64,000 nucleotides of DNA from Escherichia phage vB_EcoP_PhAPEC5: sequence record NC_024786.1. One strand, written 5' to 3'. Under the pieces are notes generated by a model. The model searched no databases. It worked only from the letters and a program-made list of their open reading frames with translations, and was not told the DNA's origin. The translations under genes were made by a program, and so were the position numbers. This document shows, one piece after another, positions 12,945 through 64,000 of this stretch. Each line of letters opens with the position of its first letter. Positions within the stretch are counted from its first letter, which is position 1.

Positions 12945-13332
12945 GAACATTAGTACCCAGATTGGTTGTCATCTGGAAGAAGTGGTGGAAATGCTGGATG
13001 TACTCCAGACTAAATTTCCTGGTTACAAAAATAAGTTAGACGATGCCCGTAAGCATTTACGCTTCATTTCTAACTTACTGAAGCAGGAAGAAGGCAGTTT
13101 CTTCATTCAGGAAGAAGACCGTCAAGAACTTCTGGATGCACTGGCTGACCAGATTGTTACAGCAACTGGCGTCGGTACTTTCCTTGGGATGAATGTCCCT
13201 GGAGCATTGGCTGAAGTCAATCGCTCAAACTATTCTAAGTTCGACGAAGACGGTAATCCTATCTTCAATGAGAATATGAAAGTAATGAAAGGCCCACATT
13301 ACACCAAGCCTGACCTCAAACCATACATCTAA
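12868..13332 (+). CDS. MazG-like nucleoside triphosphate pyrophosphohydrolase (putative); start uncertain
   Basis: EExxE-type helix HLEEVVEML and downstream acidic helix ELLDALADQIV; overlaps upstream gene by about 77 nt if ATG 12868 is used; alternative starts at 12982/12991. Confidence 0.4.
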   Translation: MTSSSVCTLENTRQWFLKAIPNPTSKNISTQIGCHLEEVVEMLDVLQTKFPGYKNKLDDARKHLRFISNLLKQEEGSFFIQEEDRQELLDALADQIVTATGVGTFLGMNVPGALAEVNRSNYSKFDEDGNPIFNENMKVMKGPHYTKPDLKPYI

Positions 13333-27258: not shown

Positions 27259-27452
27259 CCTGAAGTCGCCAGGTACTTATGGCAAACGGGTAGTAACGAA
27301 CTAGTCATTCGTCAAACGCCCACCCAATTATGAGTCAGCAAGAACGCCTTCACTTAAACTTAAACAAAAAAGCTTAACGCAATAATTATGTAGGGGTATG
27401 TAAGGATTGCGAAGAAGGAGCCAGTTAGAGCCTGGCATGACTCGCCCATTAT

Positions 27453-27526
27453 GTCCGCTTAGCTTAGACTGGGAAAGCAACCGACTAATAATCGGAAGGT
27501 CACTGGTTCAAATCCAGTAGTGGACA
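27453..27526 (+). tRNA. tRNA candidate (74 nt; anticodon loop CTAATAA, apparent anticodon AAT)
   Basis: Manual cloverleaf: acceptor GTCCGCT/AGTGGAC (7 bp, one G-T), U8, D-stem GCTT/AAGC with GG in D-loop, 4-bp anticodon stem CCGA/TCGG, 5-nt variable loop, T-arm ACTGG-TTCAAAT-CCAGT, discriminator A. Confidence 0.45.
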
Positions 27527-27756
27527 CCCATTCAGCAGTAACATAGTCCTGATTGCATAGCACTCTAAAGACAACACTGGTAAGACAGTCCAGTGGCTGC
27601 TAATGTATTGTTATTCCCCTCGACGGGAATTTCGCTAGTGAAGGTAACACTTAAAAATCCAAACCCACGTCTTACTACTATCGGGCTATCAACCCACGGT
27701 CGCTTAACCCTATAGTGGTAGTAGTTTGACGGCCTGCCTCGTTGACTGCGTTAAAG

Positions 27757-60768: not shown

Positions 60769-61429
60769 GTACTAGTTTAGAACCAGCAATCTCTTTAGTA
60801 GGTACGCCACTATTGATTGCACTAATTTGCTGTTCAGCCAATGCAGCAAGTGTTGCCTTGAGGTCAGTCAATCCAGAGTTCTCTCTTAAGTCCAGATTGA
60901 TATTCGTTACCTGGTCTTTCGGTTTAGCTAAGTGAGTGAGGATAGAGTTAGCTGCATCACACCTTACTTTCTCACTTGCTGCTGTATTCATTAGTTCAAC
61001 CTGTACGTTGATAGCCTTCTGATAATTGTCCTGGTTCACAATCCACACTGGAACCAAACTTTGTTCCATGATTAGGTTAACTAACTTACCTCTGTGATAA
61101 GCAGATACGTAAGCACTAATATCTTTCTCACTGGTTCCTCGTGCTACAAGTTCTGCTTGTCGGTTGGGGAATGTCTTGAAGTAGGCTTCCTTATTCGAGT
61201 AGCCCATGTGTTTGTAAGTTACATACTGAACTGCATTCATGTAGTCCTGTGTCTTAAACTTACCTTCCTTCATAACACCAGAGTAAGAGATGAAGTTTTC
61301 ACGGAATGACTCAGCAACCAGTTGGTCTTGGGTTACGTTGTTAATCGTGTCTACCAACTCTTGGCTCACACTGTTCTTGAAGTTAGCAGGTAAGGCATTA
61401 ACAATCTGCTGCTTAGTTAGTTCACTCAT
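60740..61429 (-). CDS. putative terminase small subunit or DNA-packaging accessory protein
   Basis: 229-aa ORF immediately upstream of and overlapping the large terminase gene; assignment by position only. Confidence 0.35.
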   Translation of the reverse strand: MSELTKQQIVNALPANFKNSVSQELVDTINNVTQDQLVAESFRENFISYSGVMKEGKFKTQDYMNAVQYVTYKHMGYSNKEAYFKTFPNRQAELVARGTSEKDISAYVSAYHRGKLVNLIMEQSLVPVWIVNQDNYQKAINVQVELMNTAASEKVRCDAANSILTHLAKPKDQVTNINLDLRENSGLTDLKATLAALAEQQISAINSGVPTKEIAGSKLVRADEDITDV

Positions 61430-61600
61430 ACTTATCTCTCTACAAAGTTATGTCTATTAACGAAGATTCTTTTCTTGGGGTGAGATACCCCTTGAAGAAA
61501 CTCTATCACACAGTTACACTTTAGTCATGATATAGAAAAAGTTCATGATACTAAATAGTATGTAATGTTCCGATGACCCTATTCCCCAAGGAGTACCCCC

Positions 61601-61891
61601 TTGAGAATCTATATGAGAGTCCAAGACTCTGAAGACAAATACTCAGAGATAGACCACACCAAAGCTGGCTTTATGGCTGGTGATATAATCCTTACCCATG
61701 ACGAAGATACATTCCATGAGTTATCTGGAATGATGCTGTTAGAGAACCGTCCCGGTGTTACAATCCTAGAACCACAAGAAACTTACTCTTTAGAAAAGTC
61801 TATTCCATCTCTTGTGTTCTTTACAAAATTACCTCATAGTGTCTCCATCAAACGAAGCAAAGATAGCGTTCGGATGACGGTGATGATGTGA
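61601..61891 (+). CDS. early-region small protein, paralogue family member A
   Basis: Shares motif (DIILTHDEDTFHELSGMMLLENRPGVTILEP) with downstream ORFs. Confidence 0.45.
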   Translation: MRIYMRVQDSEDKYSEIDHTKAGFMAGDIILTHDEDTFHELSGMMLLENRPGVTILEPQETYSLEKSIPSLVFFTKLPHSVSIKRSKDSVRMTVMM

Positions 61892-62040
61892 TTAGTCATA
61901 CCGCCTAGTAGACAGTGGCGGTACTCGTAAAGAGTTAATAACTTCTACAGTCAGGGTTCCCCGGCTCCTTTCCTACTCCGTAGGTCTAACGGTACATAAG
62001 TACCTAGGGGGATGAACTGACCCGTGATTGAAAACGGTAA

Positions 62041-62076
62041 GGGGTAGAGTCGAGAGGCTCTACCCCATTTCTTTTT
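62041..62076 (+). terminator. Rho-independent terminator
   Basis: Stem GGGGTAGAG / CTCTACCCC (9 bp) followed by ATTTCTTTTT. Confidence 0.65.
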
Positions 62077-62092
62077 CTGGAGGTATGCAATT

Positions 62093-62491
62093 ATGAGCAT
62101 CTACTTTTTTGATATTGATATTACTGGTGTACTGCATAGACAAGAACCCCATTGCTTGGGAGAACCAGAAGCAGTAAGTAAGATGCTTGCCCCATGGCAA
62201 TCAGTATTCTTTCCTAACTGCGATGAATCCCATGAGGTTATTGGCTCTCTTTTCTTATCCAACCTTCAGCTTAACACTGAGATACTTACTGAACCAAAAG
62301 TATATGATCTCACTCAGTACAGCGAGTTCAACAAGTTCTTCCCCGGTGTACGCTTCTATAAGATAGATGGTTGGGAATTGATAGCTGACCATAACGTCTT
62401 TAATAAAACACTTTCCATTTACTTCAGACCTATCCCTAAAGGAAGGAAAATCAATCATGAAATTCATAATGACTATCCCCAGTTTTGCTGA
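62093..62491 (+). CDS. early-region small protein, paralogue family member B
   Basis: Motif VFFPNCDESHEVIGSLFLSNLQLNTEILTEP. Confidence 0.45.
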   Translation: MSIYFFDIDITGVLHRQEPHCLGEPEAVSKMLAPWQSVFFPNCDESHEVIGSLFLSNLQLNTEILTEPKVYDLTQYSEFNKFFPGVRFYKIDGWELIADHNVFNKTLSIYFRPIPKGRKINHEIHNDYPQFC

Positions 62492-62771
62492 AAGGACACC
62501 CATGTACACAAATGACTTCACTTTAGAAGAAGTCATGGATAGTAGTTCCCAACGTGTAATACTAGTTCCTACCTTAGAGGACTACCATGAAGTAAGGGGC
62601 CAATTATTCTTAGCGGGTAATGACCGTAAGGTTGTATGTATTATTCCTCCTTCCATCTACCCCGTTAGTAGTGCAGATGACGCTCTACCTTTCATGATGG
62701 TGTCCGATGAATACCAGTGGAATACCCGTTATGAGAATGACGAATACCGTTACTATTACGTAAGGAAGTAA
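62457..62771 (+). CDS. early-region small protein, paralogue family member C
   Basis: Motif VILVPTLEDYHEVRGQLFLAGNDRKVVCIIPP. Confidence 0.45.
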   Translation: MKFIMTIPSFAERTPMYTNDFTLEEVMDSSSQRVILVPTLEDYHEVRGQLFLAGNDRKVVCIIPPSIYPVSSADDALPFMMVSDEYQWNTRYENDEYRYYYVRK

Positions 62772-62774
62772 GCC

Positions 62775-63092
62775 ATGCACTTCTACGGTTTGAGTAGTCG
62801 TAGTACCTGTCCCCTTAATCTGGGGGTAGGTAAATCTCCTTGGTTGGGAATAAGTAAACCCATGACCATGTACTATGAACAATGTGAAAAAGCAGATGAG
62901 TTCATCGGAACCTGTTTAATGTTAGGTGCACCTATTACCTTTATTAGGATAGATACTTCCATTGAAGTTCCAGAAGATGTCACTGTATACATCTACTCCT
63001 CCAGCGAACCTATGGTAGCTACTACTCTTACAGGTAGACTCATTACTCTGTATCCTTCTTCCTCATATTTATCTAGCGGTGAGAGCTACTAA
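62775..63092 (+). CDS. early-region small protein (divergent family member)
   Basis: Weaker copy of the motif (ADEFIGTCLMLGAPITFIRI). Confidence 0.4.
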   Translation: MHFYGLSSRSTCPLNLGVGKSPWLGISKPMTMYYEQCEKADEFIGTCLMLGAPITFIRIDTSIEVPEDVTVYIYSSSEPMVATTLTGRLITLYPSSSYLSSGESY

Positions 63093-63361
63093 TGATTATT
63101 AGTAAACTATATGATGATTACGAACACCGTAAAGAAGTATCTAACCTAATTGCTGATGTACTTATCCTGGTTCCAGACGAGCAGTCCTTGCATGAACTAC
63201 AGGGATTGCTTTTCTTATACAATAAGAAAGCAGAAGTACATCTACTTGAACCAGGAACACCGATGTCCTGGCAAGGTGGCTTTAGTCCTTGGCATCTCAA
63301 TACGGATGAGTACATTCTAGCCTTCGAGAATAACACCTCCATCTATAAGGAAAGACAATGA
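63092..63361 (+). CDS. early-region small protein, paralogue family member D
   Basis: Motif VLILVPDEQSLHELQGLLFLYNKKAEVHLLEP. Confidence 0.45.
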   Translation: MIISKLYDDYEHRKEVSNLIADVLILVPDEQSLHELQGLLFLYNKKAEVHLLEPGTPMSWQGGFSPWHLNTDEYILAFENNTSIYKERQ

Positions 63362-63672
63362 AACTAAACACATCCCCCTATCCAATACAGTTAGAAGTAG
63401 TATTCGACTGGGGTATATTCTCAAAGAAGTACAAGAAAGCTAAAAGCATTGAACCAGAGGAACAAAGCAAAGGTGTTACTACACTGCTTCCCGATGGTTC
63501 GGTACTTATCTATGTACAGGATAGTAACCCTATCACATTGGTTCATGAACTTAATCACTTCTGCATATACACGTTTGGCTTCGTTGGCTTACCAATTAAT
63601 GATGAATCATCCGAGGCATACTGTTATTACATGGACAGTCTTCTTAAACAGGTACTAAAGCATGAACGTTAA
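63358..63672 (+). CDS. early-region small protein with HExxH-like motif
   Basis: Contains LVHELNHF; ATGA-type overlap with neighbours. Confidence 0.4.
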   Translation: MKLNTSPYPIQLEVVFDWGIFSKKYKKAKSIEPEEQSKGVTTLLPDGSVLIYVQDSNPITLVHELNHFCIYTFGFVGLPINDESSEAYCYYMDSLLKQVLKHER

Positions 63673-64000
63673 ACTCTTAGGTATGCGTGGTACAGCTTTA
63701 CTGCACTACTCTTCTGAACCAGAGAAAGCAATCATCCACCTTATGTCCTATGGGGATTCCACACTAATAATGGAACCAGGAGAGTTAGCAGACTTTGCAC
63801 AAGGACATAAGATTCTTACTAACAGCAATGCAAAGATAGTTATCTTGCAAAATGGTGAGTCAGCCTTCATCTTATTAGGTGATTATGCTCATGTGTTTAT
63901 CAAAGATGCTGCCGTAAGACATAGTAGTGGTAACCCTAACCATCCTGATTATTACTCTGGCATAGCTCGTATTATCACCCGAATCTCACCTCCTATTTAA
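63662..64000 (+). CDS. early-region small protein, paralogue family member E
   Basis: Motif LIMEPGELADFAQGHKILTNSNAKIVILQ; stop codon is the last three bases of the window. Confidence 0.4.
   Translation: MNVKLLGMRGTALLHYSSEPEKAIIHLMSYGDSTLIMEPGELADFAQGHKILTNSNAKIVILQNGESAFILLGDYAHVFIKDAAVRHSSGNPNHPDYYSGIARIITRISPPI

What the first reader, a model, noticed from the sequence alone, without database searches (positions are those of the whole stretch)
61601..64000. Tandem array of small paralogous genes at the right end of the window
At least five consecutive ORFs of 89-132 aa share a core motif of the form hydrophobic-x-P-x-x-D/E-x-x-HEL/V-x-G-x-L-F-L followed by an h-x-h-E-P segment (GDIILTHDEDTFHELSGMMLL; VFFPNCDESHEVIGSLFL; VILVPTLEDYHEVRGQLFL; VLILVPDEQSLHELQGLLFL; LIMEPGELADFAQGHKIL), and a sixth has LVHELNHF. 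Genes are packed with ATGA-type overlaps on the + strand opposite the late operon. A diversifying paralogue family in an early region is typical of host-takeover or anti-defence genes.
Basis: seen in the sequence. Interest (0 to 1): 0.55.

Follow-up and report, generated by a model that had tools for sequence, protein, structure and literature searches.

The report
N4-like phage right-end paralogue operon
The right end of this N4-like coliphage carries a fast-evolving operon of small proteins, most of them diverged copies of one domain of unknown function (the phage N4 gp70/gp71 family), placed behind a conserved structured RNA with a terminator that no database lists; it is not an early host-takeover region.

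Summary
The window is a Gamaleyavirus (G7C/N4-like, Schitoviridae). Positions 61601-64000 are its right-end gene cluster, after the terminase genes and before the terminal repeat.

- **Paralogy.** It is real for four ORFs: A 61601-61891 (the N4 gp70 orthologue), B 62093-62491 (a gp71 homologue), C 62457-62771 and E 63092-63361. Shuffle z-scores are 6-11 and hhalign probabilities 71-92%.
- **Doubtful or unrelated ORFs.** D and G give weak matches, in register with the core motif (E about 1e-4; controls at least 0.05), so they are possible remote members. F is unrelated and carries an HExxH motif.
- **Coding status.** All seven ORFs are under purifying selection (dN/dS 0.17-0.31, against 0.025 for terS).
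- **Variation.** A-B-C-D is constant among the Gamaleyavirus records read here. The distal genes vary in content, order and copy number, and G/E chimeras exist.
- **Distribution.** The family has about 24 clusters among 1.84 billion representative proteins. Wherever context was read (N4-like coliphages and Achromobacter phages), members sit in this right-end cluster.
- **Function.** There is no Pfam or PDB relative, only a generic alpha/beta fold, so function is unknown.
- **"Early region".** This is not supported. The cluster lies at the genome end that N4 injects last.
- **Unexpected feature.** A 195-nt structured RNA (61889-62083) lies between A and B and ends in a strong terminator just before B's ribosome-binding site. 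It has strong covariation, no Rfam match, and is more conserved than the genes around it.

The parts
61430..61600 (.). Divergent intergenic region between terS (- strand) and gene A. It is nearly invariant among Gamaleyavirus. It contains the hairpin GGGGT-GAGAT-ACCCC (61477-61491) and the box GTTACACTTTAG (61513-61524), both recognisable in N4; the box is also in Achromobacter phages. Presumed promoter or regulatory region for both transcription units.
   Evidence: Alignments of the region across relatives. No sigma-70 consensus promoter was found there by the scan.
61601..61891 (+). Gene A, 96 aa from TTG 61601, with SD AAGGAG 7 nt upstream (92 aa if started at ATG 61613). Orthologue of N4 gp70, phrog_7213. 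It is the constant first gene of the cluster in every relative examined.
   Evidence: 41% identity to N4 gp70 and 64% to Moo19 gp86. phrog_7213 at 6e-45. dN/dS 0.26.
61889..62083 (+). Candidate structured RNA starting at A's stop codon. It has a P1 hairpin (61900-61922, conserved 11-nt loop) and a multi-branch domain closed by GUCAG..CCCC / GGGG..CUGAC that holds two variable hairpins. An unpaired CUCCU core (61965-61969; CUCCUU in most relatives) is invariant. A P3 hairpin and a terminator follow.
   Evidence: 93-100% nucleotide identity in 55 phage records, above the flanking genes. RNA fold z=-3.2. RNAalifold gives 39 pairs, 17 of them compensatory. The CM finds it full length in N4, Moo19, Jgk1, Achromobacter phages and metagenomic contigs. 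Covariation: 26/39 pairs against 11.3+-2.2 in shuffles, 0/500. No Rfam match.
62041..62076 (+). Intrinsic terminator (11-bp stem, 7 GC pairs, U-run) forming the 3' end of the RNA. B's Shine-Dalgarno GGAGG (62079-62083) follows directly.
   Evidence: Terminator scan. Annotated as a terminator in PhAPEC7. The stem covaries across relatives.
62093..62491 (+). Gene B, 132 aa. Family member, homologue of N4 gp71, phrog_9160.
   Evidence: 27% identity to N4 gp71, 2e-7. hhalign B-C 71-76%. dN/dS 0.17.
62457..62771 (+). Gene C, 104 aa. Family member, phrog_11661. Overlaps B by 35 nt.
   Evidence: C-E z=10. hhalign C-E 85-94%. Matches phrog_16338 at 7e-4.
62775..63092 (+). Gene D, 105 aa, phrog_12099. 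Possible very diverged family member (inconclusive).
   Evidence: hhalign against the super-profile 34.5%, E 4e-4, in register; controls at most 1%. The Moo19 orthologue shows the motif. dN/dS 0.24.
63092..63361 (+). Gene E, 89 aa. The central family member, phrog_16338, identical to PhAPEC5_75. Absent from several close relatives.
   Evidence: AF2 model pLDDT 69 with a beta-alpha-beta-alpha-beta core plus a C-terminal sheet.
63358..63672 (+). Gene F, 104 aa, phrog_1365. Invariant H63-E64-x-x-H67 and S85-E86-A-Y-C-Y-Y. Not a family member; possible minimal zincin.
   Evidence: No Pfam or PDB relative. 136 homologues; the long contigs among them are about 70 kb, the size of an N4-like genome.
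63662..64000 (+). Gene G, 112 aa, phrog_12606. Possible remote family member (inconclusive). Duplicated in IME11 and Mimir124. Some relatives carry G N-terminal halves fused to E-type C-terminal halves.
   Evidence: hhalign 23-55%, E 1e-4 to 9e-4, in register. Duplicates. Chimeras P0233 and P0245. AF2 model unusable.

Best explanation
This is the right-end accessory operon of an N4-like (Gamaleyavirus) phage.

Shown:
- The operon starts with gene A, a conserved orthologue of N4 gp70.
- A is followed by a conserved structured RNA that ends in a strong intrinsic terminator.
- Six translationally coupled small genes come next.
- At least three of those six (B, C, E), and perhaps five (with D and G), are diverged tandem duplicates of the same ~60-residue alpha/beta core as A.
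- The genes are real and under purifying selection, but evolve about ten times faster than the neighbouring terminase gene.
- The distal genes are gained, lost, duplicated and recombined between close relatives.

Inferred:
- The proteins are soluble, mildly acidic, non-enzymatic binding modules, because no catalytic residue is conserved.
- Each acts stoichiometrically on a host or phage partner. Duplication and divergence let the phage track variable partners.
- They are made in the middle or late phase, not the immediate-early phase, because this DNA enters the cell last.
- Expression of B-G depends on read-through of the terminator. The RNA upstream of it therefore sets or regulates how much of the array is expressed relative to A.
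For: - Identity of the locus: (terS/terL, then gp70-like..., then the DTR).
- Paralogy.
- Family extent: 24 real clusters among 1.84e9 representatives, all 90-130 aa. Every member whose genomic context was examined sits in this same right-end cluster in an N4-like phage.
- No conserved catalytic residues.
- Selection: dN/dS 0.17-0.31 against 0.025 for terS.
- Variable content. Chimeras.
- Terminator and RNA.
- Timing: PMC4496689 and PMC9163698.
Against: - No experiment or homology bears on function. 'Binding module' rests only on the absence of catalytic residues and on small size.
- Gene A and the RNA are conserved across two subfamilies. That looks more like a core function than an accessory one.
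- No promoter was identified, so the transcription class (RNAPII or host RNAP with N4SSB) is unknown. B-G could have a promoter inside the RNA region.
- The E model has only moderate confidence (pLDDT 69).
- Membership of D and G is unresolved.
Confidence: 0.55

Rival explanations
1. Anti-defence or host-takeover array. Each paralogue would inhibit a different host immunity or housekeeping protein, and diversification would be driven by an arms race.
For: - Fast evolution, variable copy number and mosaicism.
- Small acidic proteins, pI 4.6-5.5 for A-E.
- Gamaleyavirus and N4 are unusually resistant to restriction-modification systems, by an unknown mechanism (PMC11990801).
Against: - The genes sit at the end injected last, so they cannot protect incoming DNA or act before the early genes do.
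- No similarity to any characterised protein.
- They are only mildly acidic and do not look like Ocr/ArdA-type DNA mimics.
- A-B-C-D is invariant within the genus.
Confidence: 0.3
2. Regulatory module. Gene A (gp70) would be an RNA-binding protein acting on the structured RNA in its own 3' region to control terminator read-through into B-G. This is the architecture of the Bacillus subtilis hut operon: regulator gene, terminator leader, then the regulated genes.
For: - A and the RNA always occur together and in the same order, from coliphages to Achromobacter phages.
- A's stop codon lies inside the conserved sequence UGAUnAG.
- The terminator abuts B's Shine-Dalgarno sequence.
- The invariant unpaired CUCCU core can pair with the 5' flank and arm of the terminator. 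N4 has CUCCAA opposite UUGGGAG, where Gamaleyavirus has CUCCUU opposite AAGGGG (my reading).
Against: - There is no evidence of RNA binding. The fold search did not return HutP or other RNA-binding antiterminators.
- The alternative pairing is supported by a single covarying lineage and is weak in phiAxp-3 and L039.
- It does not explain why the regulated genes are paralogues of the regulator.
Confidence: 0.2
3. Genome-end or replication/packaging helpers. The family would act on phage DNA ends, concatemers or the terminase, given its position between terS and the terminal repeat.
For: - Position next to terS and the DTR.
- The authors of the LUZ7 study suggested a replication-related role for their mid-transcribed right-end ORFans (PMC9163698).
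- A is conserved like a core gene.
Against: - The distal members are dispensable in many relatives.
- Other Schitoviridae carry tRNA arrays or unrelated ORFans at this locus.
- No DNA-binding signature was found.
Confidence: 0.12
4. The motif is a chance resemblance among unrelated ORFs, or the ORFs are not genes.
For: For F the resemblance (HEL) is indeed coincidental. For D and G it is not proven.
Against: - Shuffle tests.
- Profile-profile comparisons with negative controls.
- dN/dS well below 1 for all seven ORFs.
- Structural matches between subfamilies.
Confidence: 0.02

Closest known systems
Phage N4 gp70 and gp71 (YP_950548, YP_950549), hypothetical proteins at the N4 right end
   Same: A is the gp70 orthologue (41% identity) and B a gp71 homologue (27% identity). 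Position after gp69 (terS), strand, intergenic RNA and terminator are all the same.
   Different: N4 has only these two members plus a 42-aa gp72 (129-nt ORF). The window has four firm members and up to six. Neither N4 protein turned up with a described function in the papers searched here.
PHROG families 7213, 9160, 11661, 16338 (also 12099, 12606, 1365), all 'unknown function'
   Same: Each window ORF is a full-length member of one PHROG, at E 1e-25 to 1e-66.
   Different: PHROGs keeps them as separate families. Here 7213, 9160, 11661 and 16338 are linked into one superfamily by profile-profile, shuffle and fold evidence.
Right-end cluster of 29 small ORFans (gp87-gp115) of the N4-like Pseudomonas phage LUZ7
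   Same: Same place in the genome plan and same strand as the early and middle genes. Small ORFans of unknown function, covered by mid-infection transcripts (PMC9163698).
   Different: Neither the protein family nor the RNA was detected in the one Litunavirus right end tested (vB_Pae-PA14, not LUZ7 itself). The link is an analogy of architecture, not homology.
B. subtilis hut operon / HutP antitermination (regulator gene, terminator leader, regulated genes)
   Same: Gene order: a small protein gene, then a structured RNA with an intrinsic terminator, then the downstream operon. This comparison rests on my own knowledge of the hut system.
   Different: No sequence or fold similarity to HutP was found. 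There is no evidence that gp70 binds RNA. The RNA is far larger and more branched than the hut terminator.
tRNA gene arrays at the same locus in other Schitoviridae (Salmonella FSL SP-058, Klebsiella KpCHEMY26, Sinorhizobium ort11)
   Same: Stable-RNA genes transcribed rightwards, immediately beyond the terS divergent region.
   Different: The window's RNA is not a tRNA (ARAGORN). The CM does not match those phages.

Membership tests
N4 gp70/gp71-like small alpha/beta domain family (defined here: PHROGs 7213+9160+11661+16338) | Significant sequence or profile similarity to other members across the strand-turn-helix-strand core (hILVPxxExxHEhxGxLhLxNxxxxVxxLxP) | tested here: met
   Met for A, B, C and E; family HMM E 1e-17 to 1e-31.
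N4 gp70/gp71-like small alpha/beta domain family | The same similarity, tested for D and G | tested here: inconclusive
   G 55% (E 1.2e-4) and D 34.5% (E 4.2e-4) against the super-profile, both in register. Four negative controls give at most 1%. G-type ORFs hit the HMM at 1e-3 to 1e-4 in many genomes. The G model has pLDDT 46.
N4 gp70/gp71-like small alpha/beta domain family | The same similarity, tested for F | tested here: not met
   hhalign probability at most 2.7% against every subfamily and 1% against the super-profile.
N4 gp70/gp71-like small alpha/beta domain family | Location in the rightward cluster between terS and the terminal repeat of an N4-like phage | tested here: met
N4 gp70/gp71-like small alpha/beta domain family | Shared predicted fold | tested here: met
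   The E model (pLDDT 69) matches BFVD models of the C family (TM 0.65), the E-like 108-aa family (TM 0.67), an N4 gp71 orthologue (TM 0.55) and Achromobacter phage proteins, with probability at least 0.98. Only one member was modelled here.
N4-type early genes (vRNAP-transcribed host-takeover genes) | Location in the left-end region that is injected first | tested here: not met
   The cluster is at the right end in linear records with mapped DTRs. vRNAP promoters are restricted to the left end (PMC4496689).
N4-type early genes (vRNAP-transcribed host-takeover genes) | Upstream vRNAP hairpin promoter (5-7 bp stem, 3-nt loop) | tested here: inconclusive
   A conserved hairpin lies upstream of A at 61477-61491, but its loop is 5 nt (4 nt in N4) and its flanks differ from the published promoters. 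No transcription data are available.
Known anti-defence proteins (e.g. Ocr/ArdA DNA mimics) | Homology to a characterised inhibitor, or extreme acidity with a DNA-mimic fold | tested here: not met
Zincin metalloproteases (for F only) | HExxH motif plus a downstream third ligand | tested here: inconclusive
   H63-E64-x-x-H67 and E86 are invariant in 6 orthologues. There is no Pfam or PDB profile match and no structure was modelled.
Rfam RNA families (for the 61889-62083 element) | Covariance-model match | tested here: not met
   No match in this stretch at E up to 1. No tRNA or tmRNA.
Terminator-type cis-regulatory leader (riboswitch or attenuator) | Conserved structured domain followed by an intrinsic terminator directly upstream of the regulated ORF | tested here: met
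   B's Shine-Dalgarno sequence starts 2 nt after the U-run.
Terminator-type cis-regulatory leader (riboswitch or attenuator) | Mutually exclusive antiterminator pairing, and a ligand or protein that switches it | not testable with these tools
   A candidate CUCCUU/AAGGGG pairing has one covarying lineage, N4. The effector is unknown.

The most novel reading that the evidence does not exclude
The 195-nt element at 61889-62083 is a new class of phage regulatory RNA, conserved across two Schitoviridae subfamilies. It would sense a signal, either the adjacent gp70 protein or a small molecule, and gate terminator read-through into a diversifying array of gp70-derived paralogues. The array would then be a conditionally deployed effector battery rather than a constitutive operon.
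Probability: 0.2. Interest if true: 0.75.

Novelty: new variant of a known kind. Interest (0 to 1): 0.5.

Why it matters
Tandem arrays of fast-evolving small ORFans are common in phages, so the array alone is ordinary. What this work adds:
- Four 'unknown' PHROG families and N4 gp70/gp71 are joined into one superfamily, found here in the right-end cluster of N4-like phages of the Enquatrovirinae and Rothmandenesvirinae. That gives one target for structural and interaction studies instead of many.
- The assumption that these are early genes is corrected.
- A strongly covarying, unlisted structured RNA sits exactly where expression of the array must be decided. It is more conserved than any neighbouring protein.

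N4 is a classic transcription model. A conserved RNA and terminator at its right end, in a region for which I found no published transcription map, is directly testable with existing in vitro systems (vRNAP, RNAPII, E. coli RNAP with N4SSB).

Tried and rejected
- **G membership by structure.** The AF2 model had pLDDT 46 and was not searched further. The afdb50 fold library was unavailable.
- **Promoters.**
  - No sigma-70 consensus upstream of A or B.
  - The k-mer ACTTTAG recurs 8 times on the + strand but with no common context, so it was rejected as a promoter motif.
  - A 13-mer shared with position 22784 lies in coding sequence with no hairpin, so it is chance.
  - I recalled a possible N4 middle-promoter word (AAGACCTG) from memory. 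It showed no meaningful distribution and I did not rely on it.
- **Literature.** Nothing on the function of N4 gp70-72 or on a Gamaleyavirus transcriptome.
- **Is the RNA a copy of a host RNA?** No match in 5,426 E. coli genomes.
- **Do the RNA and family occur in all Schitoviridae?** No. They are absent from the Litunavirus, Ithacavirus, Pylasvirus and Huelvavirus loci examined. An Erwinia phage gives only a weak 15-bit hit.
- **Annotation caveat.** The annotation of Klebsiella phage K57alpha1.2 over this stretch (primase, exonuclease) is out of register with the sequence. I ignored it.
Full report
**What the region is.** Megablast of 61400-64000 finds 57 phage records, all Gamaleyavirus or close relatives (G7C, Bp4, ECBP1, IME11, PhAPEC7 and others). 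ORF E is identical to PhAPEC5_75. In linear records with mapped ends the stretch lies at about 69-72 kb of about 72 kb. It comes directly after the leftward late genes (tailspike, gp67, terL, terS) and before a roughly 400-bp direct terminal repeat. PhAPEC7's authors note that its first ORF resembles N4 gp70. N4 has gp70, gp71 and gp72 in this place. In circularly permuted assemblies the cluster runs on into gp1 and gp2, but that junction crosses the physical genome ends.

**The ORFs.** Seven + strand ORFs fill 61601-64000.
- A: 61601-61891. TTG start with AAGGAG 7 nt upstream; this start aligns with the N4 gp70 N-terminus.
- B: 62093-62491.
- C: 62457-62771.
- D: 62775-63092.
- E: 63092-63361.
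- F: 63358-63672.
- G: 63662-64000.

From B onwards the genes are packed with overlaps or 3-nt gaps. All seven are under purifying selection: pairwise NG86 dN/dS is 0.17-0.31 across 5-7 relatives, so they are genes. They evolve about ten times faster than terS, which has dN/dS 0.025.

**Is the paralogy real?**
- Using only the window's proteins, Smith-Waterman scores against 2000 shuffles give A-E z=11.1, C-E z=10.0, B-C z=6.1, A-C z=3.7 and B-E z=3.5.
- Profiles of orthologue groups give hhalign A-E 91-92%, C-E 85-94% and B-C 71-76%. Negative controls (gp1, gp2, F) never exceed 3%.
- A and C also hit E's PHROG family.
- An AF2 model of E (pLDDT 69) has a beta-alpha-beta-alpha-beta core plus a C-terminal sheet.
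- In BFVD this model confidently matches only small proteins of N4-like phages: the C family, the 108-aa E-like family, an N4-gp71 orthologue and Achromobacter phage proteins.
- A, B, C and E are therefore paralogues.

**The other three ORFs.**
Both give weak matches, in register with the motif, to a super-profile: G 55%, E 1.2e-4; D 34.5%, E 4.2e-4; four controls at most 1%.
- The Moo19 orthologue of D shows the motif clearly.
- The G model was too poor to use. D and G remain possible remote members.
- F is unrelated. It carries an invariant HExxH and a downstream SEAYCYY block, with no Pfam or PDB relative.

**Extent and variability of the family.**
- A profile search of 1.84 billion representative proteins finds 26 clusters. 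Two are translated-repeat artefacts. The rest are all proteins of 54-132 aa, most of them 90-130 aa.
- Every member whose context I examined lies in the same right-end cluster of an N4-like phage. These are Gamaleyavirus, N4, Moo19, unclassified IMG/VR and Logan contigs and, more weakly, Achromobacter phages of the Rothmandenesvirinae.
- Only the Gly of the motif is near-invariant across the family. The His-Glu pair is replaceable, which argues against catalysis.
- Gene order across genomes shows A-B-C-D constant in Gamaleyavirus, with a variable distal part:
  - window: E-F-G
  - PhAPEC7: F-G-x-E'
  - Mimir124: G-G
  - IME11: G-F-G
  - UE-S5b: F-x
  - G7C: none
  - N4: A-B only
- Some metagenomic G proteins end in an E-type C-terminus (LEPGK..W..WHxNTDKY), so the paralogues recombine.

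**Function.** There is no Pfam, PDB or informative fold hit. The proteins are soluble and mildly acidic. Function is unknown. My best inference is non-enzymatic binding modules whose duplication and divergence track variable partners.

**Timing.** The 'early region' reading fails.
- In N4 the vRNAP hairpin promoters are confined to the left end, which is injected first.
- RNAPII start sites were mapped to the left half of the genome.
- The remainder of the genome enters only after middle transcription begins (PMC4496689).
- In the N4-like phage LUZ7 the rightmost ORFan cluster, which is analogous rather than shown to be homologous, is covered by mid-infection transcripts (PMC9163698).
- I could not identify a promoter. 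No sigma-70 consensus lies upstream of A or B.
- The terS-A intergenic region is almost invariant. It holds a hairpin (61477-61491) and a GTTACACTTTAG box, both recognisable in N4; the box is also present in Achromobacter phages.

**The unexpected feature: a structured RNA.** The 200 nt between A and B are more conserved than the genes on either side: 93-100% identity in 55 records.
- They fold better than shuffles, z=-3.2.
- They end in an 11-bp terminator with a U-run, and B's GGAGG starts 2 nt later.
- Alignment of ten diverse versions shows compensatory changes in every helix; RNAalifold gives 17 of 39 pairs compensatory.
- A covariance model built from these finds the element full length in sequences it was not trained on. 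It always lies between the gp70-like gene and the next small gene.

  | Sequence | Score |
  |---|---|
  | Jgk1 | 166 bits |
  | Logan contig | 178 bits |
  | phiAxp-3 | 56 bits |
  | IMG/VR L039 | 36 bits |

- On 18 sequences, 91.8% of cells pair. Twenty-six of 39 pairs show double changes, against 11.3+-2.2 in shuffles (0/500) and 3-7 in slid controls. The caveat is that this alignment was fitted to the model.
- Conserved G-U pairs point to RNA from the + strand.
- There is no Rfam match, no tRNA and no E. coli counterpart.
- The element was not detected in the one locus examined from each of Litunavirus, Ithacavirus, Pylasvirus and Huelvavirus. Three of these loci carry tRNA arrays at the same spot.
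- An invariant unpaired CUCCU core (CUCCUU in most relatives) could pair with the 5' side of the terminator. N4's CUCCAA/UUGGGAG against Gamaleyavirus's CUCCUU/AAGGGG is the only covariation for this pairing, so it stays a hypothesis.

**Consequences for expression.** Whatever the polymerase, B-G lie behind this terminator. Their expression relative to A is therefore set at this RNA. A simple alternative is a partial terminator combined with a 3' stabiliser for the A transcript.

**Verdict.** The array is an ordinary kind of phage feature. The superfamily link and the conserved RNA and terminator are new and testable.

Noticed in passing
window 61889-62083 (+): A 195-nt structured RNA candidate between gene A and gene B, ending in an intrinsic terminator. 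It is more conserved than the flanking genes, shows strong covariation and has no Rfam match. It is present from coliphage N4 to Achromobacter phages.
   Followed up: yes
window 61430-61600: The divergent terS/A intergenic region is nearly invariant across Gamaleyavirus. It contains the hairpin GGGGT-GAGAT-ACCCC (61477-61491) with flanks TTCTTTTCTT/TTGAAGAAAC, shared with N4. It also contains a GTTA(C/G)ACTTTAG box shared with N4 and Achromobacter phages, and a direct repeat TCATGATA (61525, 61543). Probably promoter or regulatory DNA of unknown class.
   Followed up: partly
proteins P0233, P0245, P0224 (relatives of G): Some G-family proteins carry an E-family C-terminal segment (LEPGKxxxWxxxxxxxWHxNTxKY). 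This means paralogues of the array recombine. The G family also has two alternative C-terminal halves that switch at about residue 63.
   Followed up: partly
L043, L046, L047 (Sinorhizobium ort11, Salmonella FSL SP-058, Klebsiella KpCHEMY26): In other Schitoviridae the same rightward locus beyond terS holds arrays of 4-11 tRNA genes instead of the RNA element and the paralogue array.
   Followed up: partly
window 27452-27530 (+): ARAGORN calls a tRNA-Ile with the unusual anticodon AAT among the + strand (early/middle-orientation) genes.
   Followed up: no
window 63358-63672 (gene F): A small (104 aa) protein with an invariant HExxH and a downstream SEAYCYYxD block. It has no Pfam or PDB relative; the long contigs that carry its homologues are about 70 kb, the size of an N4-like genome. 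Possibly a minimal metalloprotease.
   Followed up: partly
L003 (Klebsiella phage vB_Kpl_K57alpha1.2, OY979416.1): The deposited annotation over this cluster (DNA primase, exonuclease, all flagged as pseudogenes) does not fit the sequence, which is the terS/gp70 cluster. The feature table looks shifted relative to the sequence.
   Followed up: no
window 13020-13151 (-): A weak match to the RNA model (14 bits, E 0.038). Probably chance.
   Followed up: no
L045 368-528 (Erwinia phage Gutmeister): A weak RNA-model hit (15 bits, E 0.003) near the right-end gene gp92. It could be a very diverged version of the element in the Erskinevirinae.
   Followed up: no
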